A stretch of 39,243 bases of DNA from Jimgerdemannia flammicorona (Eukaryota): NCBI GenBank assembly GCA_003990765.1, contig RBNJ01000147.1, positions 1-39,243 on the forward strand, in the 5' to 3' direction. A program made the translations under genes and the position numbers. Numbering within the stretch: position 1 is the stretch's first letter; each line of letters begins with the position of its first letter. The notes under the pieces are model-generated. The model did not search any database, had not been told where the DNA came from, and worked only from the letters and a program-made list of their open reading frames with translations. Shown in pieces: positions 1,117 to 34,457 of this stretch.

Positions 1117-2319
1117 TTAGGTGCTGTCTGGGTAGTCCTCGATGACATCACCATCAATTGCATCATCTCTGATGAAGTAGTTGTCTAGGAAGAGTGGTTC
1201 ACAGATTACTTCTCCTTGTTGGCTGAGGTAGTAATACATTGGGACTTCATCTCTGTCCCACAGAATAGCATCATCTGTCTCGTAGGCTGGATAAGGTGTT
1301 GGTGGGCGAAGGATGGGTGTATTGTCTTCGCTTTCGTTGGATTCACTGTCTGCATACCTTCTATAGGTTATGGCACTATGAGTTGCAGGATTGTAGTAAG
1401 CTGGCAGCTGTGGTTCATGTCGCTTGTACTCAGGTGGTGGAGTGGTTGGTTCGATCTTAAGGGTTGTCTGAAGGTACAGATTGTGTTCTCCAGTCTCTTC
1501 ATTGTAATTGAAGTAATCAGGGGTGAATGCGGGTTAGTATTCGTACCAGTGGTCATTGTCCCAATAAGTCTTGTATGCAGTTATGAACTGTTGCAAGTTC
1601 ATCGGCAAGTTTGGTAGTGTGATCAGGGTTGGCAGAGATCCTTGGCTAGAGGTCATATCAGCATCAGAGGGATCATTGTCTTCTGCTTTATCTTCGTCGA
1701 AGTAGATTATATCATAGACATCCTTTATGGTATATCCGACTTAAGGCATTTGCAGGATGTGGTCATCAGGGTGCAGGAAGGTTCTGTCTGTGGTTTCGAC
1801 ATACTCGAGGTACTTGTGGTTGAGTTCTTGTATCATGTCATCGATTTGGCCATAGGACAGGGTAGCAACCATTTCGCTGGTAGTGACTCGGAGGCAGGGA
1901 ATAAAGATATTGTACTCATAGAAGAGTTCTCGATGTTTGCAGGCAATGAGCTTCTGGTGTTGAGACATCTGGGTAATGTCTATATCATGGTGGTGTTTGA
2001 CCATGTCTTCCAGGAGGCAGCCGATCTGGTAGTAGCTTGAGATTTGTCCGATTTGGTGGGCCTCGCTAAGCATGTTCAGGGCATTCCATCGGGCTTCCAT
2101 AAAGTAGAGGGGTGCCAGGCTATGGATATTCATAAGGGGCAGAGGGGGTGTGGCTCGGTTGATAATGGCATTCCAAATGTCAGCATGGATATGGTTGTAG
2201 ATCTCAGTGGTCATGTTTGTGTGTTTGGAAGTTGTGATTGTTGTTTGTTTTGGTTCTTTGATTTGACGCATCTTGGTGCTCGGTATATATACATTTGGTC
2301 CTGATTGGTAAGATTCCAT
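1117..2319 (-). pseudogene. LTR(U3)-encoded ORF of unknown function, 365 aa from the ATG at 2214 (400 aa from 2319), with two premature TAA stops
   Basis: One frame reads MTTEIYNHIHADIWNAIINR...NYFIRDDAIDGDVIEDYPDST*. Both internal stops are CAA (Gln) in at least one other LTR copy. The 1098-nt length is identical in B's 5' LTR. Confidence 0.85.
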
Positions 2320-2502
2320 TTGTATAAATCTTGTGTTCTATGACTTTGTATTGACTCAGCTTTGTGCGCTGTGACTTCGGTTTGACTCAGCTTTGTGATC
2401 AAGCAGGTGATTTCCAGATTTGTTCAGAGGTCACGTGTAATTTTGGTGGCTTGTTCAGAGGGTGACGTGTACTTTCGGTGGCTTGGAGGTTGTGTGCTTA
2501 CA

Positions 2503-5500: not shown

Positions 5501-5683
5501 TTGGAGAATTGGTGGAGCAGTGGAAGGGGTTACTCTTGGAAGTGGTGCAAGAGTGGTGGTATCAGGGGAAGAGGCACCAGTTGGGAGCCATGAAGAAGGT
5601 GTTAGACATTGTTCAGAGAAGTTGAGAGTACCTTGTACTTGGTGAGAAGGGGGTGAGGTGGAAAGAAGATGTGGGCTGAATAG
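2503..5683 (+). pseudogene. LINE ORF2 (C-terminal end of APE endonuclease, reverse transcriptase, C-terminal CCHC), degenerate; about 4322..5266 inverted
   Basis: APE motif RIDWILV...SDHWGV. RT motifs PGEDGLPWEF, NWRPIMLLNVDRKLVSKIL, FLDQEKAYDRV, GVPQGDPLSPLLY and AFADNI. YLGIWF, GRIVVLN and GGLGL lie on the minus strand at about 4950..5270. Confidence 0.9.
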
Positions 5684-5802
5684 CCCTTCCTTGTATTATT
5701 ATAAATAGTTATGGGTTGGGTTCATTATTGTTCTAAGGTAATCATAGAGATACATGGATAGTGTTATTCTTTAGACTAGTGGAATAAAGGAGTCCAAGCG
5801 AC

Positions 5803-5838
<36 letters not shown>
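2503..5838 (+). mobile_element. L1/Tx1-like non-LTR retrotransposon (3' portion) with internal inversion, 3' UTR and poly(A) tail
   Basis: APE and RT motifs, AATAAA at 5783..5788, and an A33 tail at 5806..5838. The 5' part is displaced by the insertion of copy D. Confidence 0.9.
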
Positions 5839-5841
<3 letters not shown>

Positions 5842-5990
5842 CTTAAAAGTAAACTATAATTATATTTGCTCTTCTAAGATTTTCAAAAAAGTATTTACTA
5901 AGATATATAAGACTTTCAAGCTTTTTCTAAATTAGAATAAGATATCTTTTTAATAGACCAACTTAAGATCATATATAGTAGATCTATAAG
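5839..5990 (+). pseudogene. Fragment 1 of a decayed DDD-type (Sola-like) DNA transposase
   Basis: AT-rich. Translates as ...FQAFSKLE*DIFLIDQLKIIYSRSI and joins 23064 across the ATAAG TSD. Family assignment rests on fragment 3 and on recalled family motifs. Confidence 0.5.
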
Positions 5991-6393
5991 TATAAGAGGA
6001 TTGCTTTTTAGGGTAACTATTACATAGTTCTGGAAGGATTTTCTGGAAGTTCTAGATATTCTGGAAGACTGTTTTCTTATGGTCAAGATCAATTTCATAT
6101 GGAGTATGTCCTCTATGCTTATTGATTTTAAGATCAGGTTGATGTCTCAACCAAAGTCCTTTTTTGGACATTCAGGATTTTTCATATTTCAGGAAGTTCA
6201 ATAAACTAAGACCAGCTTAGTTGCATTGGTGTATCGCTGCAGACAATACCCAATTAGGAAATTTTGTGATGGGGTTAGGAGTGGGACCTAACGGGGAGTG
6301 GATTTACTTAAAAGTAGTTTGTGAGTTATTAAATAGGTTTATTCGCTATTTATGATATTGCTATACTAGGAGTAGTTGTGTAAAGGGATATTG
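5991..6393 (-). repeat. 3' LTR of copy B, distal part (split by copy C)
   Basis: Matches about 437..850 of the D LTR and resumes at 12755 after the TATTG duplication. Confidence 0.92.
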
Positions 6394-7878
6394 TGTAAGC
6401 ACACAACCTCCAAGCCACCAAAATCGCATGGCATCCTCAGAACTAATTTGGAAACCACATGCAAGACTACAAAACAAGAGATCATCTGGTTATATGAAAT
6501 ATGCCAGTAAGTATGAGAACCCACTACCAAGATACAAGAATACTAGAAGAAGTACTACAACCATAAGACTGACTCTGAACTGCTATAACTAGTTTGGTGT
6601 ACTGTACTATTACAAAAGAAAACCAAAAGTACCAAACTCAAATTGAGACAAAAAGAACCCTATCTCATTTACCAAAAGGTTCATGAACTGCACTTATCAA
6701 CTCAAAGATTAAGATACACTGTGACTATATAAGACCTCATTATTTAGCAGAAGCAAAAACATATTTGAATAACTCTGTTCACTCTATCTGTGTCACCTCT
6801 GTTGGAGAGTGACAGACACTTCATCTGAACTCAAGAAAGCTGACAATGTCGAAACCAATCTCAAGCCATCTACGTGACAGATATTACTACTAGAAATTGC
6901 CTCAGATTACAGAAAATATCATTTCCAAGAGGTTTGAACCCCCAGCCATGATATTGGAAGCCCTTGCTCTAGACGAGAATGGCCAGTCCTTGCAAATGCA
7001 CTAGCAGACCAAAAAAAAAAGAGAACCAAGACCTGTTATCTTTGTACAACCACCGCCACCAAGGATAGCCTTAATCTTACAAGAGATAGAAGTGACAATA
7101 TCTTGAAACTGATGATGTCAGAAGTCAGAAAACTGCTCAGACTTTGCTAGCAATGATGTCATCAATAGTGATGTCATCAAAGACTAACCAGACAGTACCT
7201 AAATCTATAAATAGTCTAGCAGTCATAGTATAGTTAGATTAGCCTTGTACGATATGACTGTGAACTGACTCAGCAGTCAGACGATCTCTTGACATGTCAG
7301 ATCACACTTGTACTACATGACTGCATTCTGACTCAATAAGGCACTTAGTGCTATATCCATATTTAGCATAGTCCAGATAGCCCCTCACTAGTATAAATAC
7401 CCCCTCCCCCAGATCTCAGAATCTCAGACTCGAATACACAAGAATATTCTTGAACACTTCTCCACAATATCTCTTTACACAACTACTTCTAGTATAGCAA
7501 TATCATGAATAGCAAATAAACCTATTTAATAACCCACAAACTACTCTTAAGTAAATCTGCTCCCTGTTAGGTCCCACTCCTAGCCCCATCATGAAATTTC
7601 CTAATTGGGTATTGTCTGCAGCGATATGCCAATTCAACTAAGCTGGTCTTAGTTTCTTGAACTTCCTGAAATACAGAAAATTCTGAACATTCAGAACTAG
7701 TCCGAAAAAGGACTTTGGTTGAGACGTCAACCCGATCTTGAAATCAATAAGCATAGAGGATATACTCCATATGAAATTGACCTTGACTATAAAAAAACGG
7801 TCTTCCAGAATATCCAGAACTTCCAGAAAACCCTTCCAGAACTATGTAATGGTTACCCTAAAAAGCAACCCTCTTACA
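6394..7878 (+). repeat. 5' LTR of copy C (1485 bp, short type)
   Basis: Direct repeat of 11272..12754. It shares only the first ~60 bp and last ~725 bp with the long LTR type. Confidence 0.93.
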
Positions 7879-10800
7879 ACTTGGTAGCAGCAGTTTACAA
7901 TCCCATTCTACTTCAAGATGCTTCCTCACCCCGCTACAAACCCTTCTGCGAATTCCTACAAGTTGGTATAAAGCCCAACCTCTGAACTGGAATTTATCCT
8001 AAACCATCTGACAATCTGGAGAGAATTGAACCTGATGTACAAGGACAATTTGACCTCCATACCTGCAACAAGTGAGACAAACTTCACTCAAAAGAAGAAG
8101 TACTCCAATTAAATCAGCAAATAGGTAAAGCCCTATTCACCGAACTCCTTGCTCTATACCCAGCAAGTCAAGATGAAGAAGGTCTTATAGAAGTCTTCTT
8201 TACTCTTCTCAACAAGAGTTTTGTCAGCTCTATAAATCCGAGTGACCTAGGACAACCAGCAGCAGTCTTTCTAGCCATAGTTCTGCATGAAGCTCAAGCC
8301 TCTGTATCCAAGTGGCTCAACTCTACTGACTTTCACCATACTAGGACTAAGACCACATTATACTACTGATTCCAGAATAGCAAGGCCTGCTATATTCTTA
8401 AAGAAGAAGCAAGAGAAACCCTTCATCAGCTATCTGACCCCAAACCAGAAGCAGGCCTAGCTACAGCTCTACCTGAATCTGAAACCAATACTGAACCAGA
8501 ACTTGACTTTGAATTAAGTCCATCTGAAATCAGATATACAACTGATTCTGTCTACTTTGACACCGAGCAAACCCAATTACACAGGGACCAAACCGAAGAG
8601 GAGGAGGAGTATCTCAGTGAATTCAATCCCGGATACACCACCAAAGGAGATACACCTCCATCAGGCCAGAACACACCTACACAACAACAAACAGTTATCT
8701 ATCAAGCCCTCACTCCAGACCCACAAATACTACTCCAGCAACTTACACAGACCCAAAGAACACCCTCACACTCTGCACCAGTACCTCAAGTAGTACCAGT
8801 AACACTATTACCAGTAGTCCAACCACCTCCAGTAAACAATATGGCAAACCAACAGATTCTAGACCTCATAGCCCAGGTAGCAATAATGGCAGCAACCATT
8901 ACAGCCCTAGCTGAACAGAACCAACCTACCAAAAATCTGAGCCTACCTACCTTCAATGGTACTGCACAAGAAGTCCAAAGCTTCATTAGTGTAGTTGACA
9001 CCAACTTTGAAGTCAATCAATGGACCAATGAGTGAGTTGCTGACCATGTTCTTACAAACAATCAAGACCACACTCTGGAACAACTCTTTGCTACCACTAC
9101 AGCCTATGTCTGCTGAGTTGTTACATTCTTCCGAGGACCTGCTGAAGAATGGTGGCAAACCCTTCCTGAAAAACCCCTCACATGGGACACCCGACCTGCA
9201 GTAGTTGCTCAGAATGCAGCAAACAATGCCCCAGGATATGGAGCTCATCCTGCAGCCCCTGGACTCAAACAACTCATGATTGCTCAATACCACAGTGAAA
9301 CTATGATTGCCAAATCTCGAGTAAAACTCTGTAACCTCAAATTCGATGTACATGGTAAAGAAGAATTCAAAACCTTCTGTACAAAACTCAAGTCACTCCT
9401 AAACACTGTTGGCCTAAGATATATTACCAATGATGAAGCATGAAATAGTACAAGAGCAGACCATTTATTCGATGCCCTATCTGAATGGCTTACTAGAAAA
9501 ATCCGGGAATAAGGGCACCCAGTTGGTTGTGATCACCAACAATAGTGCCTGGTAAGAATCAAGACTATGGTTAAGCGAATCCTAACAGCTGGACCAATTC
9601 TGCCCTGAAGACAATTCAACAACAAGGAAAAGACTTGGACCAAGAAAGAAGAACCCAAGCATGAAGCATCCCAAGCTCCCTCAACATCCACTTTATAGAC
9701 CCCTAGAAATCACAAGCCCACCCAGCCGAGTACCTTTAAGAAACTCACTGAAGGTGAAAGGAATGAACTTCAAAGAAGTGGAGCATACTTCTATTGCTGA
9801 AAGACAGGACACATGGCCAGTGCCTGTCCTAACCGAAAACCCCAAACAGCAACACGAGCAACTGTTACTACTCTGCACCACCTCAATAACCTGACCACCA
9901 GAACTCTAGACTTTGTCAAGTTAAAACAAACTGCCAAAGCCCCAACCAAAGGAAGTCAAAAGACAGCTGGATATGACCTGTATGCAGCTGAAGAAGCTAC
10001 AGTTTCCAACCGAGAAGTCAAGCAAGTCTATACAGGAATCAGTATCCAAATTCCTGAAGGACATGTTGGAAGAATATGCTGTCGCAGCAGCCTAGCATTG
10101 AAAGGACTCTCAGTAGAAGGAGGAGTTATTGACAAAGATTATACAGGTGAAATTATTGTCCTCATCCAAAACCACAGTTGGACACCCTTCAAGATCCCTA
10201 TAGGCTTCTGCATTACTCAGATCCTATTTGAAAAAATCGAGTCAAACCTGACAGTCAAAGAAGTCCCTGAACTACTACCCACCATCCAAGGATCCAAAGG
10301 ATTTGTCTCATCAAACAAGGCCCCAGCCCAACCTACCATGAACAAAGAAGAACAATTCTATAAGAAAATCGAAGATGGATATGTACCAAGTGGCTGATGT
10401 CTCCATGGCATTGAAATGTACTCTTCTCGAATAATTGATGATTGCTTCTCTTGTGTCAATGAACTGGCTCAAAGAAGAACCAATAGAAGGAAAGCTCCTA
10501 TAACCGAAATCACTACCATTGGATCAAACAAACTGCTTACACTTAAGGCTTTTGTCAACCGAGCACTTGTCAAGATTATGATAGACAGTGGTGCCTCAGG
10601 CAACTTCATCAATGAAGAAACAGCCAACAGACTTAAGGTCTTCACCTCTCCGGTATAACAAACTCAAGCAGTTGCCACAGCTGATGGAACCTCACATGTC
10701 ATTAGCAAAGAAGTCCACAATCTGCCCTTCCAAATTGATGACTATCGAGTACATGTTACCCTCCAGATTGTACTGCTCTCTGACAACAAAATCATCCTTG

Positions 10801-11100
10801 GAACTCCATGATTAAAACAAGAGAACCCCATGATCGATTGGGTAAATCATTCTCTGACTATCAAGAAAGGACACCACAACTTCAAGCTGTAAGGCGAAAA
10901 GGACCCACTCAGTTCTAGTGACCCCGGACCAAAGATCACTCATATCAACAAGCTACAACTCAAGAAATTGGCCAAGAAATGCCCTCTCTTCGCTATCTCC
11001 ATCCATCCATCCAAAGGAGAACCCGAGAACTCTGAAGAAGACTTTTCCAAAGTTGACAGCTATGTTAGACCACTACTCCAGAAGGTCTGAGACACATTTC
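7701..11100 (+). pseudogene. gag-pol: Copy C polyprotein: N-terminal extension, Gag (CCHC), dUTPase, aspartic protease; truncated at the start of RT
   Basis: The ORF pieces at 7719, 8841, 9813 and 10416 share one frame, broken by transition-type stops. Motifs: LPTFNG, FRGPAEEWW, a knuckle reading CFFC.KTGH.ASA. in B and HMASAC in C, and IMIDSGASGNFI. Confidence 0.9.
9906..10313 (+). CDS. dut: Trimeric dUTPase domain of the polyprotein (stop-free in this copy)
   Basis: All five dUTPase motifs are present: AGYDL, GRICCRSSLA, GGVIDKDYTGEI, I(A/T)QIL and consensus RGSKGFGSS (QGSKGFVSS in this copy). It is not a stand-alone gene; it lies within ORF 9813..10397. Confidence 0.93.
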
Positions 11101-11271
11101 CGAACCGAACTACAAAACCACCTACACCTGTTATTATCAATGACTAAGAAGAATACAAAGTTGAACAAATCCTCAATAAACACAGCCACAAGAACCATCC
11201 AAATAGTACAACAACACCAGAACAAATTAGAAGACCCCGATGAGGATGTCGAAAGCTAAGAAGGGGAGAGT

Positions 11272-12754
11272 TGTAAGCGTACAACCTCCAAGCCACCAAA
11301 ATCACATAGCATCCTCAGAACTAATTTGGAAACCACATGCAAGACTACAAAACAAGAAATCATCTGATTACACAAAATATGCCAGCAAGCATGAGAACCC
11401 ACCACCAAGATATAAGAATACTAGAAGAAGTACTACAACCATAAGACTGACTCTGAACTGCTATAACTAGTTTGGTATACTGTACTATTACAAAAGGAAA
11501 CCAAAAGTACCAAACTCAAATTGAGACAAGAAGAACCTATCTCATTTACCAAAAGGTTCATGAACTGCACTTATCAACTCAAAGACCAAGATATACTGTG
11601 ACTATACAAGACCTCATTACTTAGCAGAAGCAAAAACACATTTAAACAACTCCGTTCGCTCTATCTGTGTCACCTCAATTGGAGAGTGATAGACACTTCA
11701 TCTGAACTCAAGAAAGCCGACAATGTCAAAACCAATCTCAAGCCATCCACATGACAGATATTACTACTAGAAATTGCCTCAGATTACAGAAATATCATTT
11801 CTGAGAGGTTCGAACCCCCAGCCATGACATTGGGAGCCCTCGCCCTAGACGAGAATGGCCAGTCCTTGCAAATGTGCCAGCAGACCAAAAAAAAAAGAGA
11901 ACCAAGACCTGTTATCCTTATACAACCACTGCCACCAAGGATAGCCTTAATCTTGCAAGAGATAGAAGTAACGACATCTTGAAACTGATGATGTCAGAAG
12001 TCAGAAAACTGCTCAGACTTTGCCAGTGATGATGTCATCAATAGTGATGTCATCAAAGACTAACCAGACAGCACCTAAATCTATAAATAGTCTAGCAGTC
12101 ATAGTATAGTTAGATTAGCCTTGTACAATATGACTGTAAACTGACTCAGCAGTCAGATGATCTCTTGACATATCAGATCACACTTGTACTATGTGACTGC
12201 ATTCCGACTCAGCAAGATACTTAGTACTACATCCATATTTAGCATAGTCCAGATAGCCCCTCACTAGTATAAATACCCTCTCCCCCAGACCTCAGAATCT
12301 CAGACTCGAATACACAAGAACATTTCTGAACACTTCCCCACAATATCTCTTTACACAACTACTCCTAGTATAGCAATATCATGAATAGTAAATAAACCTA
12401 TTTAATAACCCACAAACCACTCTTAAGTAAATCCGCTCCCTGTTAGGTCCCACTCCTAGCCCTGTTACGAAATTTCCTAATTGGGTATTGTTTGCAGCGA
12501 TACGCCAATTCAACTAAGCTGGTCTTAGTTTCTTGAACTTTCTGAAATACGGAAAATCCTGAACATCCAGAACTAGTCCGAAAAAGGACTTTGGTTGAGA
12601 CGTCAACCCGATCTTGAAATCAATAAGCATAGAGGACATACTCCATATGAAATTGACCTTGACCATAAGAAAATGGTCTTCCAGAATATCCAGAACTTTC
12701 AGAAAACCCTTCCAGAACTATGTAACAGTTACTCTAAAAAGCAACCCTCTTACA
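11272..12754 (+). repeat. 3' LTR of copy C (1483 bp)
   Basis: Follows the PPT; direct repeat of 6394..7878. Confidence 0.93.
11379..12032 (+). pseudogene. Putative alternative U3 ORF of the short LTR type (about 217 codons, unknown function); second copy starts at 6501
   Basis: MPASMRTHHQDIRILEEVLQP...DILKLMMSEVRKLLRLCQ, with several stops each one transition from CGA, CAA, CAG or TGG. A second frame (about 11539..11982) is also mostly open, so the frame is uncertain. Confidence 0.45.
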
Positions 12755-14417
12755 TATTGTGGGGAAGTGTTCAGAAATGTTCTTGTGTATTCGAGTTTGA
12801 AATTCTGAGATCTGGGAGAGGGGGTATTTATACTAGTGAGGGGCTATCTGGACTATGTTAGATATAGATATATGTAGTACTAAGTACTTTGCTGAGTCAG
12901 AATGCAGTCACATAGTACAAGTGTGATCTGATATGTCAAGAGATTGTCGGACTGCTGAGTCAGTTCACAGTCATGTCATATAAGGCTAATCTAACTATAC
13001 TATGACTGCTAAGCTATTTATAGATTTAGATGCTGTCTGGATAGTCTTCGATAACATCACTATCGATTGCATTATCTCTGATGAAGTAGTCATCTAGAAA
13101 GAGTAGTTCATGGATTACTTCTTCTTGTTGGCTAAGGTAATAATACATTGAAACTTTGTCTCTGTCCCACAGGATAGTATCATCTGTCTCATATGCTGGA
13201 TAAGGTGTTAGTGGGTGAAGGAGGAGTACATTATCTTCACTTTCATCGGATTCACTATCTGCATACCTTCTATAGGTTACAGCACTATAAGTCGCGAGGT
13301 TGTAGTAAGCTGGCAGCTGTAGTTCATATCACTCATACTCAGGTAGTGGAGTTGTTGGTTCGATCTCGAGAGTTGTCTGAAGGTACAGATTGTGTTCTTC
13401 AGTCTCTTCATTGTAGTTGAAGTAATCAGGGGTAAATGCAGGTTGGTATTCATGCCAATAGTCATTGTCCCAATAGGTCTCATAGGTGGTTATGAACTGT
13501 TGTAAGTTCATTAGCAAGATTGGTGGACTGATCAGAGTTAGTAGAGATCCTTGGCTTGAGGTCATGTCAGTATTGGCAGGATTATTGTCTTCTGCTTCAT
13601 CTTCATCAAATCGGATTATATCATAGACATCCTTCATGGCATATCCGACTTGAGGCATTTGCAGGATATGGTCATCAGGGTGTGGGAAGGTTCTGTCTAT
13701 AGTCTGGATGTATTCGAGGTACTTGTGGTTGAGTTCTTGTATCATGTCATCGATTTGGCTGTAGGACAGAGTAACAACTATTTTGCTGGTAGTAACTCAG
13801 AGGTGGGGAATAAAGGTGCTGTACTTGTAGAAGAGTTCTCTGTATTTGCAGGCAATGAGCTTCTGGTGTTGAGACATCTAGATAATGTCTGTATTGTGGT
13901 AATGTTCAACCATATCTTCTAGGAGGCAGCCAATCTGGTACATAGTAGCTTGAGATTTGTCTGATCCAGTGGGTCTCATTAAGTATGTTCAGGGCATTCC
14001 ATTGGGCTTCCACAAAGTAGAGGGGTGCTAGACTATGGATATTCATAAGGGGCAGAGGGGGTGTGGCTCAGTTGACAATGGCATTCCAAATGTCAGTGCA
14101 GATGTAGTTGTAGATCTCAGTGGTCATATTGTGTATGTTCAGAAGTTGTGGTTTGTTGTTTGTTTTGGTTCTCTGTTTCATCATGTCTTGATACTTGGTA
14201 TATATGCATTTGGTCCTGATTGATAAGATTCCATTTGTGTGAATCTTGTATTCTGTGACTTCGTGTTGACTCAGCTTTGTGTACTGTGACTTTGGTTTGA
14301 CTCAGCTTCATGATCATGCAGGTAATTTACATATTTGTTCAGAGGTTGCATGTGATTTTGGTGGCTTATTCAGAGGGTGACATGTGATTTCTGTGGCTTG
14401 GAGGTTGTATGCTTACA
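12755..14417 (-). repeat. 3' LTR of copy B, proximal part
   Basis: Starts TGTAAGCATAC at 14417, right after the PPT, and is colinear with the long LTR type. Confidence 0.92.
13026..14127 (-). pseudogene. LTR(U3) ORF copy in B's 3' LTR (4-bp insertion near 13940, stops)
   Basis: Includes ORF 13329..13745 (MIQELNHKYLEY...); homologous to 1117..2214. Confidence 0.82.
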
Positions 14418-15154: not shown

Positions 15155-15191
<37 letters not shown>

Positions 15192-21170: not shown

Positions 21171-23058
21171 AACTAGTTCTAGATGTTCAGGATTTTCCAT
21201 ATTTCAGGAAGTTTAATAAACTAAGACCAGCTTAGTTGAATTGGCATATCGCTGCAGACAATACCCAATTAGGAAATTTCGTGACGGGGTTAGGAGTGAG
21301 ACCTAATGGGGAGCAGATTTACTTAAGAGTGGTTTGTGGGTTATTAAATAAGTTTATTCGCTATTCATGATATTGCTATACTAGGAGTAGTTGTATGAAG
21401 GGATATTATGGGGAAGTGTTTAGAAATGTTCTTGTGTATTCAAGTCTGAGATTCTGAGGTCTGGGAGAGGGGGTATTTATACTAGTGAGGGGCTATCTGG
21501 ACTATACTAGATATGGATATAGCACTAAGTACTTTGCTAAGTCAGAATGCAGTCATATAGTACAAGTGTGATCTGACATGTCAAGAGATCATCAGACTGC
21601 TGAGTTAGTTCACAGTCACATTATACAAGGCTAATCTAACTATACTATGACTGCTAAGCTATTTATAGATTTAGATACTGTCTGGATAGTCTTCAATGAC
21701 ATTATCATCGATTGTATCATCTCTGATGAAGTAGTCATCTAGGAAGAGTGGTTCATAGATTACTTCTCCTTGTTGGCTGAGGTAATAATACATTGGAACT
21801 TCATCTCTGTCTCACAGGATAGCATCATCTGTCTCATATGCTGGATAAGGTGTTGGTGGGCAAAGGAGGGGTGTATTGTCTTCACTTTCATCAGATTCAC
21901 TGTCTGCATACCTTCTATAGGTTATAGCACTATGAGTCACAGGGTTGTAGTAAGCTGGCGGCTGTGGTTCATGTTGCTCATACTCAGGTAGTGGAGTTGT
22001 TTGTTTGATCTCAAGAGTTGTCTGAAGGTACAGATTGTGTTCTTCGGTCTCTTCATTGTAGTTGAAGTAATCGGGGGTGAATGTGGGTTGGTATTTGTAC
22101 TAATAGTCATTGTTCCAATAGGTCTCGTAGATGGTTATGAACTGTTGTAAGTTCATTGGCAAGGTTGGCAGGCTGATCAGAGTTGGCAGAGATCCTTGGC
22201 TTGAGGTCATGTCAGTATTAGCGGGATCATTGTCTTCTACTTCATCTTCATCAAATTGGATTATATCATAGACATCCTTCATGGTATATCTGACTTAAGG
22301 CATTTGTAGGATATAGTCATCAGGGTGCAGAAAGGTTCTGTCTGTGGTTTGGACATATTCGAGATACTTATGGTTGAGTTCTTATATCATATCATCGATT
22401 TAGCCATAGGACAGAATAGCAACCATTTCACTGGTAGTAACTCGGAGGCAGGGAATAAAGGTGCTGTACTCGTAGAAGAGTTCTTTGTATTTGCAGGCAA
22501 TGAGCTTCTGGTGTTGAGACATCTGGGTAATGTCTGTATCGTGGTGATGTTCGACCATATCTTCCAGGAGGCGGCCAATCTGGTAGTAGCTTGAGATTTG
22601 TTTGATCTGGTGGGCCTCATTAAGCATGTTCAGGGCATTCCATCAGACTTCTACAAAGTAAAGAGGTGCTAGGCTATGGATATTCATGAGGAGTAAAGGG
22701 GGTGTAGCTCAGTTGACAATGGCATTCCAAATGTCAGCATGGATGTAGTTGTAGATCTCAGTGGTCATGTTGTATATGTTCAGAAGTTATGGTTTGTTAT
22801 TTGTTTTGGTTCTCTGTTTTGTTGTGTCTTGATGCTCAGTATATATGCATTTGGTCCTAATTGGTAAGATTCCATTTATGTGAATCTTGTATTCCATGAC
22901 TTTGTATTAACTCAGCTTTATGTACTGTGACTTCAGTTTGACTCAGCTTTGTGATCATATAGGTGATTTCCATATTTATTCGGAGGTCGCATGTGATTTT
23001 GGTGGCTTATTCAGAGGGTGATGTGTGATTTCTGTAACTTAGAGATTGTATGCTTATA
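20995..23058 (-). repeat. 5' LTR of copy B (2064 bp)
   Basis: Colinear with the other long LTRs; both terminal dinucleotides are mutated to TA; followed by PBS 20980..20991. Confidence 0.92.
21671..22768 (-). pseudogene. LTR(U3) ORF copy in B's 5' LTR
   Basis: ATG ACC ACT GAG start and 1098-nt span as in copy D; contains ORF pieces 22400..22627 and 22100..22282. Confidence 0.82.
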
Positions 23059-23242: not shown

Positions 23243-25281
23243 TGTAAGCACACAATCTCCAAGCTACTGAAACCACATGTTACCTGCTGAATAAACCACC
23301 AAAATCACATGTAATCTCCAAACAAATCTGGAAATCATCTGCATGATCACAAAGCTGAGTCAATATGAAGTCATGGAATATAAGATTTACACAAACAGAA
23401 ATCTTACTAATCAGGACCAAATGCATATATACTGAGTACTGAGACACATCAAAATAGAGAACCAAAACAATCAACAAACCACAACTTCTGAACATATACA
23501 ATCATGATCACTGAGATCTATAACTGTATCTGTGCTGACATTTGGAATGCCATTGTCAACTGAGCCACACCCCCTCTGCTCCTCATAAATATCCATAGTC
23601 TAGCACCCCTCTACTTTGTGGAAGCCCAATGAAATGCCCTGAACATACTTAGTGAGGTCTACTGAATCAGACAAATCTCAAGCTACTACCAGATCAGCCA
23701 CCTTCTAGAAGACATGATCAAACACTACCACAATATAGACATCACTCAGATATCTCAACACTAGAAACTCATTGCCTGCAAACACCAAGAACTCTTTTAT
23801 GAGTATAGCACCATTATTCCCTGTCTCTGAGTTACTACTAGCAAAATTGTTACTACTCTTTCCTATGACCAAATTGATGATATAATACAAGAACTCAACC
23901 ACAAGTATCTTGAGTATATTCAGACTATAGACAGAACTTTCTCACACCTTGATGACCACATCCTGCAAATGCCTCAAGTCAGATATACCATGAAGGATAT
24001 CTATGATATAATTCAATTTGATGAAGATGAAGTAGAGAATAATAATCCCTCAGATACCGACATAATCTTAAGCCAAGGATCTCTGCCAACCCTAATCACA
24101 CTACCAACCTTGCTGATGAACTTACAATAGTTCATAACCATATATGATACTTATTGGAATAATGTGAATACTAATCTGCATTCACCCCTAATTACTTCAA
24201 CTACAATGAAGAGACTGGAGAACACAACCTGTACCTTCAGACAACCCTTAAGATCGAACCAACCACTCTACTACCCAAGTATGAGTGACATGAACCACAG
24301 CTGCCAGCTTACTACAACCTTGTGACTCATAGTGCTATAACCTATAGAAGGTATACAGACAGTGAATCTGATGAAAGTGAAGATGATGCATCACTCCTTT
24401 ACCTACCAACTCTATATCTAGCATATGAGACAGATGATGCTATCCTATAGAATAGTGATGAAGTCCCAATGTATTACTATCTCAGTAAACAAGGAGAGTT
24501 AATCTATAAATAACTCTTCCTAGACAACTACTTCATCAGAGATAATACCATTGATGGTGATATTATCAAAGACTACTCAGATAGCATTTAAATCTATAAA
24601 TAGTTTAACAATCATAGTATAGTTAGATTAGCCTTATATGACATAACTGTGAACTGACTCAGCAGTCAGACAATCTCTTGATATGTCAGATCACACTTGT
24701 ACTACATGACTACATTCTGACTCAGGAAGGCACTAAGTGCTATATCTATATCTAGTATAGTCTAGATAGCCTCTCACTAGTATAAATACCCCCTCCTCCA
24801 AACCTCAGAATCTCAGACTTGAATACTTGAACAATCTGAACACAACTCCTGAGCACTTCCCCACAATATCCCTTTATACAACTACTCCTAATATAGTAAT
24901 ATATATCATGAATAGCGAATAAACCTATTTAATAACCCACAAACTACTCTTAAGTAAATCTGCTCTCTATTAGGTCTCACTCCTAACCCCATCATGAAAT
25001 TTTCTAATTGGGTATTGTCTGCAGTGATATGCCAATTAAACTAAGCTGGTCTTAGTTTCTTGAACTTCCTGAAATATGGAAACTCCTGAACATCCAGAAC
25101 TAGTCTGAAAAAGGACTTTGGTTGAGACATCAACCCAATCTTGAAATCAATAAACATAGAGGACATACTCTATACAAAATTGATCTTGACCTTAAGAAAA
25201 CAGTCTTTCAGAATATCCAGAACTTCTAGAAAACTCTTCTTGAACTATGTAATGGTTACCCTAAAAAGCAATCCTCTCACA
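23243..25281 (+). repeat. 5' LTR of copy A (2039 bp)
   Basis: TGTAAG...CTCACA; direct repeat of 31777..33844. Confidence 0.93.
23504..24591 (+). pseudogene. LTR(U3) ORF copy in A's 5' LTR (10 bp shorter, stops)
   Basis: Homologous to 1117..2214. Confidence 0.8.
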
Positions 25282-28200
25282 ACTTGGTAGTAGTAGTTTA
25301 TAATCCAATTCTGCTTCAAGATGCTTCCTCACCCCACTACAAACCTCTCTGCGAATTCCTATAAGTTGGTATAAAGCCCAACCTCTGAACTGGAATTTAT
25401 CCTGAACCATCTGATAATCTGGAGAGAATTGAACCTGATGTATAAGGACAATTTGATCTCCACACCTGCAACAAGTGGGACAAACTTCATTTGAAGAAAG
25501 AAATACTCCAGTTAAATCAGCAAATAGGTAAAACTCTATTTACCGAACTCCTTGCTCTACACCCAGTAAGTTAAGATGAAGAAGGTCTTATTGAAACCTT
25601 CTTTACTCTTCTCAATAAGAGTTTTGTCAGCTCTACAAATCTGAGTGACCTAGGATAACCATCAGCAGTCTTTCTAGCCTTAGTCCCTTAGAAAGCTCAA
25701 GCCTCTGTAGCTAAGTAACTCAACTCTACTGACTTTCACCATACCAGAACCAAGACTGCATTATACTACCAATTCCAGAACAGCAAGGCCTACCATATTC
25801 TTAAAGAAGAAGCAAGAGAAATTCTTCATCAACTATCTGACTCCAAACCAGAAGTAGGCCCTACTACAGCTCTACCTGAACCTGAAACCAATACTGAATC
25901 AGAACTTGACTTTGAATTAAGTCCATCCAAAATCAGATATACAACTGATTCTGTCTACTTTGACACTGAGCAAACCCAACTACATAGAGACCAAACCAAA
26001 GAGAAAGAGGAGTATCTCAGTGAATTCGATCCCAGATATACCACTGAAGGAGATGTACCTCCATTAGGACAGAATACACCTATACAGCAACAGACAGCTA
26101 TCTATCAAGCCCTTACTCTAGATCCACAACTATTACTCCAGCAACTTATATAGACCCAAAGAACCCCATTACACTCTGCACCAGTACCTCAAGTAGTACC
26201 AGTAATACTACTACTAATAGTCCAACTGCTCCCAGTAAATAACATAGTGAACCAACAGATTCTAGACCTCACAGCTCAGGTAGTGATAATGGTAGCAACC
26301 ATTACTGCCTTAGCCAAACAGACCCAACCTACCAAAAATCTGAGCCTACCTACCTTCAATGGTACTGCACAAGAAGTCCAAAGCTTCATTAGTATAGTTG
26401 ATACCAACTTTGAAGCCAATCAATAGACCAATGAGCGAGTTGCTGACTACCTTCTGATAAACAATCAAGACCATACTCTGGAACAACTCTTTGCTACCAC
26501 CACAGCCTATGTCCACCAAGTTGTTACATTCTTCCAAGGACCTGCTGAAGAATGGTAGCAAACTCTTTCTGAAAAACCCCTCACATAGGACACTCAACCT
26601 GCAGTAGTCGCTCAGAATGCAGCAAATAATACCCCAGGATATAGAGCCCATTCTGCAGCCCCTGGACTCAAATAACTCATAATTGCTCAATACCACAGCA
26701 AAACTATAATTGCTGAATCTCAAGTAAAACTCTACAATCTCAAATTTGATATACATGGCAAAGAAGAATTTGAAACCTTCTGTACAAAACTTGAGTTACT
26801 TCTGAACACTATTGGTCTAGGATATATTACCAATGATGAAGCACAAAATAATACAAGAGTGGACCATTTATTCAATGCTCTACCTGAATGGCTTACTAGA
26901 AAAATCTGAGAACAAGGCTGCCCAGTTAGTTGTGATTACCAATAATGATGCCTGGCAAGAATCAAGACTATGGTCAAGTGAATCCTGACAGCTAGACCAA
27001 TTCTGCCCCAAAGACAATTCAATAACAAGGAAAAGACTTAGACTAAGAAAGAAGAACCCAAGCATGAAGTATCCTGAGCTCCCTCTACATCCACCTCTTG
27101 GACACCCAGAAATCACAAACCCACTCAGCCAAGTACCTTTAAAAAACTCACCAAAGGAGAAAGGAATGAACTTTGAAGAAGCAGAGCATACTTCTATTAC
27201 CGAAAGACAGGATATATGGCCAGTGCCTGCCCTAACCAAAAACCCTGAACAGCAATATGAGCAACTGTTACTACTCTATATCACCTCAATAATCTGACTA
27301 CCAGAACACTGAACTTTGTCAAGTTAAGACAAACTGCTAAGGCCCCAATTAAAAGAAGTCAAAAGGCAGCTGGATATGACCTGTATACAGCCGAAGAAGC
27401 TACAGTTTCCAACTGAGAAGTCAAACAAATCTACATAGGAATCAGCATACAAATCCCTGAAGGACATGTTGGAAGAATATGCTGTCACAGCAGCCTAGTA
27501 TTGAAAGAACTCTCAGTAGAAGGAAGAGTTATTGACAAAGATTACACAGGTGAAATTATTGTCCTCATCTGAAACCATAGTTGGACACTCTTCAAGATCC
27601 TCATTGGTTTCTGTATTGCTCAGATCCTATTCGAAAAAATTGAGTCAACCCTGACAGTCAAGAAAGTTCCTGAACTACTGCCCACCATTTGAGGATCCAA
27701 AGGATTTGGCTCATCAAACAAGGCCCCAGCCCAATCTACCATGAACAAAGAAGAAGAAGATTAAAGATGGATATGTACCAAGTGGCCAATGTCCCCATGG
27801 CATTGGAATGTACTCTTCCCAAATAATTGATGATTGCTTCTTTTGTATCAATTAACTGGCTCAAAGAAGAACCAATAGAAGAAAAGCTCCTATAACTGAA
27901 ATTACTACCATTGGATTAGACAAACTGCTTATACTTCAAGCTTTTATCAATCAAGTACCTGTCAAGATTATAATAGACAGTGGTGCCTCAGGCAACTTTA
28001 TCAATGAAGAAACAGCCAACAGACTCAAGGTCTTCACCTCTCCAGTACAACAAACTCAAGTAGTTGTCACAGTTGATGGAACCTCTCATGTCATTAGCAA
28101 GGAAGTCCACAACTTGTCCTTCAGAATTGGTGACTACTGAGTATATGTTACCCTCCAGATTGTACCACTTCCTGACAATGAGATCATTCTTGGAACCCTA

Positions 28201-31200
28201 TGGCTGAAACAAGAGAACCCCATGATTGATTGGGTAAACCATTCTCTGACCATCAAGAAAGGATGTCATAACTTCAAACTGCAAAGTGAAAAGGACCCAC
28301 TCAACTCCAGTAACCCTGGACCAAAGATCACTCACATCAATAAGCTACAACTCAAGAAATTGGCCAAGAAATGCCCTCTTTTTGCTATCTCCATCTGCCC
28401 ATCCAAAGAAGAACCCAAGAACTCTGAAGAAGACTTTTCCAAAGTTGACAGCCATGTTAAACCTCTACTCTAGAAATTTCGAGATATATTTCCAAAGAAA
28501 CTTCTACAGAGCCTACCTCCTAAATGAGCAGTAAACCATATCATCAAGACCATCTCAGATGCCAAGCCAGCCTTCAAGTCAATCTACCACATGTCGCTAA
28601 GAGAAATTGATGCACTCAAGAAAGAAATCGATGAACTCCTAGAATAAGGATTCATCAGATCCAGTGTATCACCCTATGGTACACTAGTCCTCTTTGTTAT
28701 CAAGAAAGGAGGAGATCTGCAGATGTGCATTGATTACCAAGACCTCAATGAACAGACCATCAAGAACTGTTGCCCACTATCTAGAATCGATGAAATATTC
28801 AATAGACTCACCAACCCACAATTCATAAGCTCTTTTGATCTGCAAAATGGTTACTGGCAAATTACTATAAAAGAAGAAGACATCTACAAGACAGTCTTCC
28901 AAACCCACTATGGATACTTCAAGTTCCTGATTATGCCTTTTGGCTTAACTAACACTCCTGCAACCTTTTAGATACTAATGAACACCATCCTGCACTCATA
29001 CCTGGACAAATTTGTTGTTGTCTATATTGACAACATCCTAGTCTTCAGTAAAACTCTAGAAGAACATCTTGAACACCTTGAACTAGTACTACTGAAACTC
29101 CAGGAAAACTGACTCTTTGCAAAACTTAGCAAATGTGAATTTCTCCTGAAAGAAATCTAATTCCTTGGACATATTTTCACACCAAATAGAATCAAAGTAG
29201 ACCTCAGCAAAATCTCTACAATCAAAGATTGGCCCAGACCCAAGAAGCTGAAAGACCTCCAGTTATTCCTGGGATTAGCAAACTATTATAAGTGATTTAT
29301 TGCCAACTTCACCAAAATCGCCACTGCTCTCACCCAAATGACCAAGTATAGCAAGAAAGAAGAATGGCCCTGGATCATAAAATAGGAGAAAGACTTCAAC
29401 AATCTTATAAATTGGGGACCTAAACAAGATACAACCTTTCAAGCATTGAAAGATGTCTTGATAACTACTCTGGTACTTCAAGCAGCAAATTCTGCCCTAC
29501 TATATAAAGTTACATACTACTGATACCTCTGATCTAGCCCTTAGAGCAGTGCTTATGTAAGAAGGACACCCTGTGGCCTATTACTCTCGTAAGTTCAATG
29601 ATACCAAAATTAACTATATAACTCACAAGAAGGAAATATTAGCCATTGTAGACACTCTGATCAAATGGCAACTATATCTAGAAGGAGCATACTTCACCAT
29701 ACTGACTGACCACAAGTCATTAGTCAACATCAAGACTCAGGCTACCCTTTCTTGAAAGTAAGCCAGATGGATGAAAGTTCTCATCAACTTTAACTATGAA
29801 ATCCAGCATCACTCTGGTAAGGAAAATATTGTTGCTGATGCAATCTCGAGACCATCAATTAAAGAAGTTATCCAAACTCTATTATGGAATAAATTATCAC
29901 AGTATGTACTGATGATAAAGAAGCTTAAGTACTCTGAGAAATTCTAAATAGTAACAATGCTGACAAGTATACCCACTATAACCAATACCAACTGAAGGAT
30001 AATACTATCTACTACAAGAACAGACTATATATCCCAAACAACTGAGACCTCCAAAGGACTATCCTATTCGAATGTCATGATGCCTCTACAGCTGGACATC
30101 TAGGATTTGACAAATGCTATGAAGTTATCTTCCAAAACTTCTATTGGCCCTACATGGCAGATCAGCTAAAGACCTACATCACTTCCTGTGATGCCTGCCA
30201 ATGGAACAAGTTCTCAACACTAGCAAAACCTAGCCTACTCCACTCTATCCTGGTACCATCTGCTAATTGGAAATAAATCTCTATGGACTTTATTGTACAA
30301 CTACCCCAAACTAAGAATGGAAAAGATGCAATTGTTGTCTTTGTAGACTATCTCAGCAAACAAGCCCACTTTGTGCTAACTACCACTACTGCAACAGCAC
30401 CAGACATAACTACACTCTTGTTTGACAACATCTTCCGCTATTATGATCTTCCTAAGATTATTGTTAGTGACTAAGATCCGAAATTCACCAGCCATTTTTG
30501 GAAAGCCCTCTATACATACCTTGGAACAAAGCTCACACTATCTACAGCCTTTTACCCTAAAACAGATGGCCAAACTGAAAGAATGAACCAAATACTGGAA
30601 CAAATGCTAAGGAACTATGTTTTCTACAGACAAGATGACTGGCATGAACATCTCACTACAGTCAAGTTTGCTTATAACAATAGCAAGCAAGCCTCTCTTG
30701 GAATGACTCCATTCTTTGCCAACACTGGACAAAACCCAAACACCCCTCTGATATTTATCTAAACTACTGATAAACCCTCCACTGTTGAAGCTATTGAAGA
30801 ATTCCTGCTCCAAATGCACAATCTAAGCCAGATTGTAATTGAGAACTTATCACAAGCTCAAGAACAACAGTCACAGTATGTTAACCAGTACTACTGAGAG
30901 GAAAATTTTAACATTGGAGAAAAAGTTCTATTGGACATCTGAGAATACCGAGTTGATAACCTCAAGTACAGACTATCTACAAAACTAAACAGCAAGTTTA
31001 TTGGACCATTCAAAGTCATTATACAAGTCTCTCCAATCTTCTACAAATTGGTGCTATCAGATATCATTAAGGTCCACCCAGTCTTTAATGTTCAATGTCT
31101 CAAGTAATACAATGACAATGATAATGAACTATTCCCAAACCAAACTACAGAACCACCTGCACCTATCATTATTAATGACTAAGAAGAATAGGAAGTTGAA

Positions 31201-31350
31201 CAAATCCTCAATAAATGTGGACACAAGAACCATCCTGAGTACCTGGTTAAATGGAAAGGTTACCTAATCCAAGATGCAACCTGAGAACCCAAGACCAACC
31301 TCCAGAATACTACTGACTTAGTTCAGGAATATGATTTCTTGAACAACTAA
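25105..31350 (+). pseudogene. gag-pol: Copy A polyprotein: extension, Gag, dUTPase, PR, RT, RNase H, integrase, chromodomain (many stops)
   Basis: dUTPase at about 27309..27715; DSG at 27976; MCIDYQDLN...MPFGLTNTPATF; YIDNI at 29023; ECHDASTAGHLGFDKCY...CDAC; MDFIVQLP...IIVSD; chromodomain at about 31180..31350. Confidence 0.93.
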
Positions 31351-31413
31351 AACTGAATATCCACTACCTATCAGTATATACTATATATTACCCTTCCAAA
31401 CATTATAATTATC

Positions 31414-31781
31414 ATGAATAAAATCAAGAACTCAGTAAAAAAAGATATAGAATATTGACTCTTTGGAAATTAGCAAAACTGAAAGCAAGCCTATTCTCTC
31501 TATACCACTGGTGGGAAATGAGGTATAGATATTTAAGAAGATTCCTTAGAGGAAATTCTCTAGCAGTGAATGATGTCAGAACCACTTCTGGCATATGGTA
31601 TTGAACACATGAGCCTTTAACATGTGAATCTAATGTGTTAGGCAACTGTACTATAAGCATACCACTTTCTGAGAAAAATGAACTTTACCAGACTTTTGAC
31701 CTCTCAAATGGTATAACAATACTAGAACAAATTAGAAGACCCTAACAAGGATGTCAAAAGCTAAGAAGGGGAGAGTTGTAA
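31414..31781 (+). pseudogene. Putative small extra ORF between pol and the 3' LTR, copy A
   Basis: Homologous to 14414..14782. The frame runs through the PPT and stops at TTG TAA overlapping the LTR start. Confidence 0.45.
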
Positions 31782-33844
31782 GTGCACAACCTCCAAGCCA
31801 CTGAAACCACATGTCACTCACTGAACAAGCCACTGAAATTACATGCAACCTCCAAACAAATCTGGAAATCACCTGTATGATCATGAAGCTGAGTCAAACT
31901 GAAGTCACAGCACACAAAGCTGAGTCAATATGAAGTTATGAAACACAAGATTTATACAAACAGAATCTTATCAATCAAGATCAAATGTATATATACCAAT
32001 ACCGAGACATATCGAAACAGAGAACCAAAACAAACAACAAACCATAACTTCTGAATATACACAAACATAACTACTGAGATCTACAACTGTATCTGTACTG
32101 ACATTTGGAATGCCATTGTCAACCAAGCCACACCCTCTCTGCCCCTCATAAATATCCATAGTCTAGCACTCTTCTACTTTGTGGAAGCCTGATGGAATGC
32201 CCTGAACATGCTTAGTGAGGCCCACCAAATTGGACAAATCTCAAGCTACTATCAGATCAGCCACCTTCTAGAAGATATGATCAAATACCACTATGATACA
32301 GATATCACTCAGATGTCTCAATACCAGAAACTCATTGCCCACAAACACCAAGAACTCTTTTATAAGTATAGCACCATTATTCCCCATCTCCAAGTTACTA
32401 CCAGTGAAATGGTTACTACTCTTTCCTATGACCAAATTGATGATGATACAAGAACTCAACCACAAGTACCTTGAGTATGTTCAGACTACAGACAGAACCT
32501 TTCCACACCCTGATGATCACATTCTGCAAATGCCTCAAGTCAGATATGTTATGAAGGATATCTATGATATAATTCGATTTGATGAAGATGAAGTAGAGGA
32601 CAATGATCCCTTGGACACTGATATAACCTCGAGCCAAGGATCTCTACCAACCCTGATCACACTGCCAACCTTACCAATGAACTTACAACAGTTCATAACC
32701 ACATACAAGACTTATTGGGATAATGACTACTGGTATGAATACCAACCCACATTTACCCCCAATTACTTCAACTACAATAAAGAGACCAGAGAACACAACC
32801 TATACCTTCAGACAACTCTTGAGATTGAACCAACCACTCTACCATCTGAGTATGAGCAACATGAACTACAGCTGCCAGCTTACTATAACCCCATGACTCA
32901 TAGTGCTGTAATCTATAGAAGGTATGCAGACAGTGAATCTGATGAAAGTGAAGATGATATACCACTCCTTCACCCACTAACTCCATATCCAGCATATGAG
33001 ACAGACAATACTATCCTATGAGATGGTAACAAAGTTCTAATATATTACTACCTCAGCAAATAAGAAGAGTTAATCTGCAAACAACTCTTCCTAGACAACT
33101 ACTTCATCAGAGATGATACTATTGATAGTGATGTCATCAAAGACTACCCAGATAGCATCTAAATCTATAAATAGTTTAGCAATCATAGTATAGTTAGATT
33201 AGCCTTATATGACATGACTGTGAACTGACTCAGCAGTCAGACAATCTCTTGACATGTCAGATCACACTTGTACTACATGACTGCATTCTGACTCAGCAAG
33301 GCACTAAGTGCTATATCCACATCTAGTATAGTCTAGATAGCCCCTCACTAGTATAAATACCCCCTCCCCCAAACCTCCAAATCTCAGACTTGAATACTTG
33401 AACAATCCAAACACAACTTCTGAGCACTTCCCCACAATATCCCTTTATATAACTACTTCTAATATAGCAATATCATGAATAGCGAATAAATCTATTTAAT
33501 AACCTATAAACCATTCTTAAGTAAATCTGCTCTCTGTTAGGTCCTACTTCTAACCCTATTATGAAATTTCCTAATTAGGTATTGTCTGCAGTGATATGCC
33601 AATTCAACTAAGCTGGTCTTAGTTTCTTGAACTTCCTGAAATATGGAAACTCCTGAACATCCAGAACTAGTTCGAAAAAGGACTTTGGTTGAGATGTTAA
33701 TCTGATCTTGAAATCAATAAGTATAGAGGACATACTCTATATGAAATTGATCTTGACCTTAAGAAAACAGTCTTAGAATATCCAGAACTTCTAGAAAACC
33801 CTTCTTGAACTATATAATGGACCCTAAAAAGCAACCCTCTTACA
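31777..33844 (+). repeat. 3' LTR of copy A (2068 bp)
   Basis: Follows the PPT AAGAAGGGGAGAG, ends CTTACA, and is followed by the TSD. Confidence 0.93.
32067..33162 (+). pseudogene. LTR(U3) ORF copy in A's 3' LTR (ATG mutated to ATA, 2-bp deletion)
   Basis: ORFs 32208..32474 and 32293..33021 are the two frameshifted halves. Confidence 0.82.
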
Positions 33845-33849
33845 ATAGT

Positions 33850-34413: not shown

Positions 34414-34457
<44 letters not shown>

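What the first reader, a model, noticed from the sequence alone, without database searches (positions are those of the whole stretch)
6394..7878. Swappable U3 cassette: same element, two unrelated LTR payloads
Seen: both LTRs of copy C share the first ~60 bp and the last ~725 bp (from about 7155, GATGTCATC...) with the long LTR. Between them they carry ~700 bp with no visible similarity to the ~1.3-kb ORF segment of A, B and D, while the internal region is clearly the same family. The variant is in both LTRs and C has a clean TSD, so it went through reverse transcription and integration. It may encode a different protein (ATG at 6501 and 11379). Inference: U3 acts as a variable cargo slot, giving a system of exchangeable accessory genes in a retrotransposon.
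Basis: partly seen in the sequence, partly recalled or inferred. Interest (0 to 1): 0.82.

Follow-up and report, generated by a model that had tools for sequence, protein, structure and literature searches.

The report
Retrotransposon with two LTR versions
One family of decayed, probably fungal, jumping genes has two versions of its terminal repeat, a long one carrying a real protein gene and a short one holding unrelated DNA with at most the remains of a different small gene, so the swap is real but a system of exchangeable genes is not shown.

Summary
The swap is real. Copy C (6394-12754, TSD TATTG) has 1.48-kb LTRs. They share the first ~60 and last ~725 bases with the 2.07-kb LTRs of copies A, B and D. 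Between these, C holds ~700 bases with no significant DNA or protein similarity to the long type. The short type is multi-copy: it is covered in 4 of 4 soil or organism runs laid. C itself is a non-autonomous derivative that lacks RT and integrase.

The long U3 carries a genuine 365-codon gene. A different frame (ATG 6683, 157 codons, two shared TGA) is more open than shuffles (P about 0.01) and starts at the same LTR offset as the long gene. However, it has a weak codon signal, no homologue in the limited searches run, and common frameshifts among other copies.

Best reading: a recombinant U3 taken from a diverged sister lineage, non-coding or a gene relic, amplified in a defective subfamily. 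U3-variable subfamilies are known (crapaud, Tnt1). The scan noted this arrangement before on other DNA of this genome.

The parts
6394..12754 (+). Copy C: non-autonomous Ty3/gypsy derivative with short LTRs, inserted in the 3' LTR of copy B
   Evidence: self-BLAST; TSD TATTG at 6389-6393 and 12755-12759
6394..7878 (+). C 5' LTR, short type (1,485 bases)
11272..12754 (+). C 3' LTR, short type (1,483 bases; two private one-base deletions against the 5' LTR)
   Evidence: runs laid on this copy
6394..6453 (+). 5' tip shared with the long LTR: 26 nearly identical bases, then diverged homology to about base 60
6454..7152 (+). Short-type-specific U3 segment (~700 bases; borders approximate)
   Evidence: no significant match; covered by many variant contigs in 4 of 4 runs
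6683..7156 (+). Candidate decayed ORF, 157 codons, ATG in both LTRs at LTR offset 290; two TGA shared by both LTRs; coding status unresolved
   Evidence: against:
6501..7202 (+).
   Evidence: no homologue
7153..7878 (+). Shared 3' part of the LTR: end of the long ORF, rest of U3, TATA-like box at 7392, AATAAA at 7515, R and U5 (functions inferred from motifs)
7881..11083 (+). C gag - dUTPase - protease reading frame, 15 stops
   Evidence: Pfam dUTPase E 2.5e-32, aspartyl protease E 5e-4 (below curated cut-off)
11084..11200 (+). Two deletion junctions with short microhomology: ~2.6 kb (RT, RNase H, integrase) and ~0.46 kb (end of chromodomain and 3' untranslated part) are missing
11258..11271 (+). 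Polypurine tract, same as in B and D
1117..2214 (-). Long-type U3 gene in copy A, 365 codons, 2 stops
21671..22768 (-). Long-type U3 gene in the B 5' LTR
13026..14127 (-). Long-type U3 gene in the B 3' LTR (private four-base insertion)
23243..33845 (+). Copy D: full-length long-LTR element with RT, integrase and chromodomain, used as reference (ends approximate)

Best explanation
A dUTPase-bearing chromodomain Ty3/gypsy family in a probably fungal genome has two U3 types on one backbone. The long type encodes a real 365-residue protein. The short type arose when ~1.3 kb of U3 was replaced by ~0.7 kb of the U3 of a diverged sister LTR lineage. The likely route is template switching between co-packaged RNAs during reverse transcription, with crossovers in the conserved LTR tip and in the last codons of the long gene. 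Because U3 of both daughter LTRs is copied from the parent's 3' LTR, the new U3 appears in both LTRs. The short type was amplified, at least in copy C as an RT-less element moved in trans. Its specific segment is non-coding or the relic of a small gene that is no longer kept in frame, so the short type is in effect a loss of the long gene, possibly with a changed enhancer. Shown: the two types, transposition of C, many short-type copies, coding constraint on the long gene, C's deletions. Inferred: donor, route, host, enhancer change.
For: Both flanks of the swapped segment belong to the B/D family: the polypurine tract and the 3' LTR part, which differs from B's 5' LTR by only 3 transversions in 713 bases. 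Homology fades gradually over the first 60 bases, as expected of a related donor. Short-type U3 is covered in every bin in 4 of 4 runs laid, with up to 18 contigs carrying one variant in run X1. One X4 contig has another LTR inserted at short-U3 offset 248, so it is an independent copy. A more diverged short-type variant shows in X4 and, by its indels, in the other three runs. One-base losses are common inside the candidate ORF: at 11581 in 12 X1 contigs (74.7 of 187.8 depth) plus X4 and X5, and at 11887 in 7 X1 contigs (217.8 of 460.5) plus X2 and X5. The listed indels inside the long ORF cancel out or remove a private insertion (12 of 33 indel rows shown). Codon-phase scores of the whole short segment (-16, -25, -28) resemble the non-coding control (-20, -24, -31), not the long ORF (+7, -85, -36). 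Long ORF: 1 shared stop in 365 and in 360 codons for the B and D LTR pairs against null means of about 22. Transversions fall 13/7/3 on third/first/second positions, as in gag-pol (28/12/4). A database protein is 64% identical over 68% of it. Precedent: crapaud and Tnt1 U3 subfamilies.
Against: No donor family was found in the window or in the collections searched. The frame from ATG 6683 is more open than shuffles (P 0.006-0.01) and both of its shared stops are TGA of the kind CpG decay makes, so an ORF intact at insertion is not excluded. Contig depth is not a copy number and only the top rows of each table were shown. Whether short LTRs always go with the RT deletion was not tested.
Confidence: 0.6

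Rival explanations
1. U3 is a real cargo slot: the short type carries a second, small (157-codon), partly helical accessory gene from ATG 6683, intact when C transposed and swapped in for the long gene.
For: The longest ATG-started run passing two shared TGA is 157 codons against a null of 79 +/- 25 (P 0.006; P 0.01 with three allowed); the non-coding control gives P above 0.2. The ATG sits at LTR offset 290, against 289-291 for the long gene in B. This frame has the fewest shared stops (5 against 10 and 12; P 0.0015-0.004) and is the best of three in all three codon models. Loose ends suggest a nine-base, in-frame insertion upstream in some copies. Unchecked scan notes describe ~154-codon U3 or pre-PPT genes in sister families.
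Against: A non-coding control strand gave a similar stop deficit (P 0.007). The in-frame codon score is -8 to -9 against +2 to +5 for equal lengths of the long ORF. Common frameshifts fall at about codons 8, 78 and 110 in other copies. No family or relative in Pfam (first 110 residues), viral contigs, GTDB genomes or PDB (best E 0.14). This frame was not searched against the two large protein libraries.
Confidence: 0.2
2. The short U3 is not unrelated. It is a very old homologue of the 5' half of the long U3 gene that later lost the acidic 3' half and decayed.
For: Same start offset. The best ungapped diagonal of the first 110 residues against the long-ORF profile is at offset +2 (anchored P 0.01; gapped N-terminal P 0.04; the same diagonal in hhalign). 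DNA 290-500 against 290-500 gives z 2.0.
Against: That diagonal scores 26.7, the null mean for a whole frame (P 0.43). An antisense frame scores higher (42; P 0.017 for the best of six), which shows how often such hits arise by chance. hhalign probability is 0.1%. Both structure models are too poor to compare (pLDDT 47 and 33).
Confidence: 0.12
3. The segment is host or unrelated-transposon DNA captured once by illegitimate recombination, and then amplified as filler.
For: No match to any other part of the window and no codon-phase signal over the whole segment.
Against: The diverged homology at the LTR tip and the diverged short-type variant in public runs point to an old LTR lineage rather than to a recent capture.
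Confidence: 0.08

Closest known systems
crapaud LTR retrotransposon of the Podospora anserina complex (PMC10787394; abstract, sections 6, 8 and 12, and passages read)
   Same: Fungal chromodomain-bearing LTR element with subfamilies that differ mainly in U3 before the TATA box, share the 3' half of the LTR and a largely homologous internal region, and decay under RIP. Template switching between co-packaged RNAs is proposed there.
   Different: crapaud has 14 subfamilies and short LTRs (about 800 bases for both together); the passages read show no gene in its U3. Here two types are seen, LTRs are 1.5 and 2.1 kb, and the replaced segment of one type is a protein gene.
Tnt1 / Retrolyc1 / Retrosol superfamily (Ty1/copia, Solanaceae; PMC1838419, passages read)
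   Same: Modular evolution: subfamilies distinguished by U3 on a conserved coding backbone.
   Different: Plant copia elements; the U3 variants are regulatory, not gene-bearing.
dUTPase-bearing fungal chromoviruses, e.g. PosPlaTy3-3 of Postia placenta (PMC2864245, passages read)
   Same: dUTPase at the amino end of Pol and a chromodomain, as in B and D.
   Different: No RT tree was built, so clade membership is untested. A U3 gene is not mentioned in the passages read.
LTR swapping between autonomous and non-autonomous partners in soybean (Du et al. 2010; seen only as a reference title in PMC6894440, text not held)
   Same: LTR exchange tied to a non-autonomous partner.
   Different: Details not read; here only the U3 interior is exchanged.
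U3-encoded genes of retroviruses such as MMTV sag (recalled, and named in scan notes); additional ORFs of plant LTR retrotransposons (PMC7264820, abstract and introduction read)
   Same: An extra gene beyond gag-pol; in MMTV it lies within U3.
   Different: This applies to the long type only. No sequence relation was found. The plant ORFs lie mostly between pol and the 3' LTR.

Membership tests
Ty3/gypsy chromovirus-type LTR retrotransposon | LTRs TG...CA, 5-base target duplication, polypurine tract | tested here: met
Ty3/gypsy chromovirus-type LTR retrotransposon | Order protease, RT, (RNase H), integrase, chromodomain in full copies | tested here: met
   Pfam protease in C (below cut-off), RVT_1 E 4e-10 and rve_3 weak (E 0.079) in D, Chromo E 2.6e-6 in D; order read from translations; RNase H not scanned
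Ty3/gypsy chromovirus-type LTR retrotransposon | RT phylogeny within chromoviruses | not tested
   no reference RT set was fetched
Non-autonomous deletion derivative (copy C) | Keeps LTRs, primer site region and polypurine tract but lacks RT and integrase | tested here: met
U3-variable subfamilies (crapaud / Tnt1 type) | Variable part confined to U3 upstream of the TATA box; 3' LTR and internal region shared | tested here: met
   the swap ends about 240 bases before the TATA-like box at 7392; the TATA assignment is by motif only
U3-variable subfamilies (crapaud / Tnt1 type) | Each type has several independent insertions | tested here: met
   long type: A, B, D in the window; short type: variant contigs in 4 of 4 runs and one independent nested copy
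U3-variable subfamilies (crapaud / Tnt1 type) | LTR types reassort against the internal-region tree | tested here: inconclusive
   C's 3' LTR part is closest to B (3 transversions in 713) while its internal part is equidistant from B and D (30 and 31 in ~3,200); three copies are too few
   candidate 6683-7156: for; against
   no genome held; pattern scans of three collections empty
U3-encoded gene (long type) | Coding constraint | tested here: met
U3-encoded gene (long type) | Expressed from a subgenomic or spliced RNA | not testable with these tools
   only contigs were available; no holder on record as RNA

The most novel reading that the evidence does not exclude
In this fungal gypsy group U3 is a gene slot at a fixed position (start codon about 290 bases into the LTR). 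Sister lineages trade it by template switching, and the short type carried its own 157-codon accessory gene, possibly a remote relative of the N-terminal helical part of the 365-residue protein. This would be a retrotransposon counterpart of exchangeable retroviral U3 accessory genes.
Probability: 0.25. Interest if true: 0.65.

Novelty: new variant of a known kind. Interest (0 to 1): 0.3.

Why it matters
Subfamilies that differ only in U3 are known, so the swap alone is ordinary. The twist is that the exchanged segment holds a constrained protein gene in one type. A subfamily that amplified without that gene suggests that the gene is dispensable in cis, meaning its product acts in trans or is not needed for mobility. 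That gives a natural loss-of-function comparison for an uncharacterised LTR-encoded protein. If the short type proves to carry its own gene, LTRs of this group would be recombining gene cassettes, which the four paper searches here (listings only for most hits) did not show for fungal retrotransposons.

Tried and rejected
- DNA patterns from the shared LTR or from the polypurine tract plus LTR start found 0 loci in JGI metagenome contigs, viral contigs and GTDB genomes. The first pattern matched 7 places in the window, one per LTR.
- Frame 6501: no hit among 58 candidates, 0 proteins at E 0.001 among 1.84 billion representatives, and none of 135 pattern matches confirmed.
- Frame 6683: no Pfam family, none of 41 viral or 84 GTDB pattern matches confirmed, and no PDB hit below E 0.14.
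- Short-U3 DNA has no match in phages and no credible Rfam match.
- The Atlas gave nothing usable for the database relative of the long protein. It gave no result for the window frames.
- Structure models were low-confidence, and the fold search on the long model gave no match at E 0.001.
- No RNA holder was listed.
- Look-ups of earlier findings by sequence and by place returned nothing.
- Rejected: simple deletion of the long U3 (no alignment); a single dead copy; an inverted piece of the long ORF (one antisense diagonal, P 0.017 among many tests); an assembly artefact (both LTRs carry it, the TSD is clean, public contigs hold it).
- Paper supplements were not opened. The crapaud supplements may show how far its U3 types are alignable.

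Full report
Layout. Self-comparison and junction reads show four copies of one LTR family. A is on the minus strand with its 5' LTR at 2502-436. B is on the minus strand (about 23057-5993). D is on the plus strand (about 23243-33845). C is on the plus strand (6394-12754) and is inserted in B's 3' LTR with the duplication TATTG. Full copies read gag, dUTPase, protease, RT, integrase, chromodomain. LTR pairs differ almost only by transitions (94 to 1 in C) at CpG and CpA. That pattern is RIP-like. With the soil runs and the known dUTPase chromoviruses of fungi (PMC2864245, passages) it points to a fungal host. The host is inferred; no call names it.

Observation. C's LTRs are 1,485 and 1,483 bases, against about 2,040-2,070 for the long type. 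They share 26 nearly identical bases and diverged homology to about base 60 (z 4.4), but not beyond. They share the last ~725 bases, from inside the final ~17 codons of the long ORF. The ~700 bases between show no significant similarity to the long U3 or to anything else in the window. C also lacks ~2.6 kb (RT, RNase H, integrase) and ~0.46 kb before the polypurine tract, with microhomology at the joins. It is therefore non-autonomous.

Is the short type a one-off? No. Of 22 runs listed I laid four on 11180-14500. All four cover every bin of the short-specific segment. In X1 up to 18 contigs carry a single variant there. One X4 contig shows a short-type LTR with another LTR inserted at offset 248, which C does not have. 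A more diverged short-type variant appears as a 384-base X4 contig, and its indels also show in X1, X2 and X5. Summed X1 depth over the short U3 (254-559) is roughly half that over the long U3 (363-1,161), but the tool warns that this is no copy number. Only 40 of 498 substitution rows and 12 of 33 indel rows were shown.

The long U3 gene is real. In A it is 365 codons with 2 stops. The B and D LTR pairs each share 1 in-frame stop against about 22 in shuffles. Element-level transversions fall 13, 7 and 3 on third, first and second positions, like gag-pol (28, 12, 4). A codon model trained on gag-pol picks its frame strongly. One database protein is 64% identical over 68% of it. It has no Pfam family and no usable fold.

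The frame from ATG 6501/11379 stops after 21 codons in both LTRs and has 10 shared stops in 6431-7159. That is more than post-insertion CpG decay can supply: about 5 hidden TG/TG pairs are expected in the whole LTR. It has no homologue.

A better candidate exists but is not proven. An ATG present in both LTRs at 6683 (offset 290; long gene 289-291 in B) opens 157 codons with only two shared stops, both TGA. Against dinucleotide shuffles P is 0.006 with two TGA allowed and 0.01 with three, but 0.55 and 0.18 with none or one; the non-coding control stays above 0.2. The frame is the best of three in three codon models, yet scores -8 to -9 where equal lengths of the long gene score +2 to +5. A weak diagonal to the long protein's N-terminus at offset +2 (anchored P 0.01-0.04) equals the chance mean for a whole frame (P 0.43), and a stronger antisense diagonal shows how easily such hits arise. 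Against it, other copies commonly carry one-base indels at about codons 8, 78 and 110, and a non-coding control strand gave a stop deficit of similar size (P 0.007). No relative was found in Pfam, viral contigs, GTDB genomes or PDB. The two large protein libraries were not searched with this frame. I put the chance that the segment descends from some gene near one half, and the chance that the gene was working while the short type spread near one fifth.

Mechanism. Both flanks of the segment are B/D-family sequence: the polypurine tract and the 3' LTR part, 3 transversions from B in 713 bases. A replacement in a parent's 3' U3 is copied to both daughter LTRs by reverse transcription (established knowledge; stated for crapaud). 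The fading homology at the tip and the older short-type variant suggest that the donor was a diverged sister LTR. Template switching needs local homology between co-packaged RNAs (PMC6894440, passages). The donor was not found, so this step is inference. The short U3 has three CRE-like motifs near the junction against one, and lacks the two AP-1-like motifs at the long type's 5' end (motif names recalled). An enhancer change is therefore possible but untested.

Comparison. The pattern matches crapaud, whose 14 subfamilies differ mostly in U3 before the TATA box on a shared backbone (PMC10787394), and Tnt1 (PMC1838419). It differs in that one U3 type carries a constrained gene. The four paper searches listed no fungal case of a U3 gene replaced in this way; most hits were seen as listings only. 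Earlier scan notes on other pieces of this genome report what reads as the same two-type LTR and call the short type non-coding (e1-7507862, e1-7553184). They also report an RT-less element of the same length as C (e1-7507476) and U3 genes in other families. These are unchecked leads. My tests agree that the long gene is real and the swap transposed, but leave the non-coding verdict less certain because of the 6683 frame.

Verdict. The structure is real and multi-copy, a new variant of known U3 modularity. The claim of exchangeable accessory genes is unproven: one gene is shown and the second is at best a relic. Interest 0.3.

Noticed in passing
window 2530-5960: Non-LTR (L1-like) element with RT on the plus strand, an inverted middle part and a poly-A tail near 5830; copy A's 5' LTR abuts it at 2502.
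   Followed up: partly
window 15156-15196: Poly-A stretch inserted in B's integrase, absent from D.
   Followed up: no
window 35687-38632: Tandem duplication (85% identical, ~1.48 kb) of the integrase 3' end, chromodomain, 3' untranslated part and an LTR piece of another gypsy family on the minus strand.
   Followed up: no
window 7113-7176 and long-LTR offsets 114, 145: The short U3 has three TGAYRTCA motifs near the junction against one in the long LTR, and lacks the two 5' TGAGTCA motifs.
   Followed up: partly
window 7185-7187: Both C LTRs have TAA where the long type has a tyrosine codon, four codons before the long gene's stop: a transversion specific to the C lineage.
   Followed up: yes
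window 7881-8369: The gag frame runs back to the primer-site end of the 5' LTR with a TGA at about 7983 shared by B, C and D; the true start of gag was not determined.
   Followed up: no
window 2473-2502 and 23243-23300: The long LTR begins with an imperfect ~30-base tandem unit; C's tip aligns to either unit.
   Followed up: partly
window 33846-35686: Very AT-rich stretch (about 20% GC) that looks like heavily mutated old repeat DNA.
   Followed up: no
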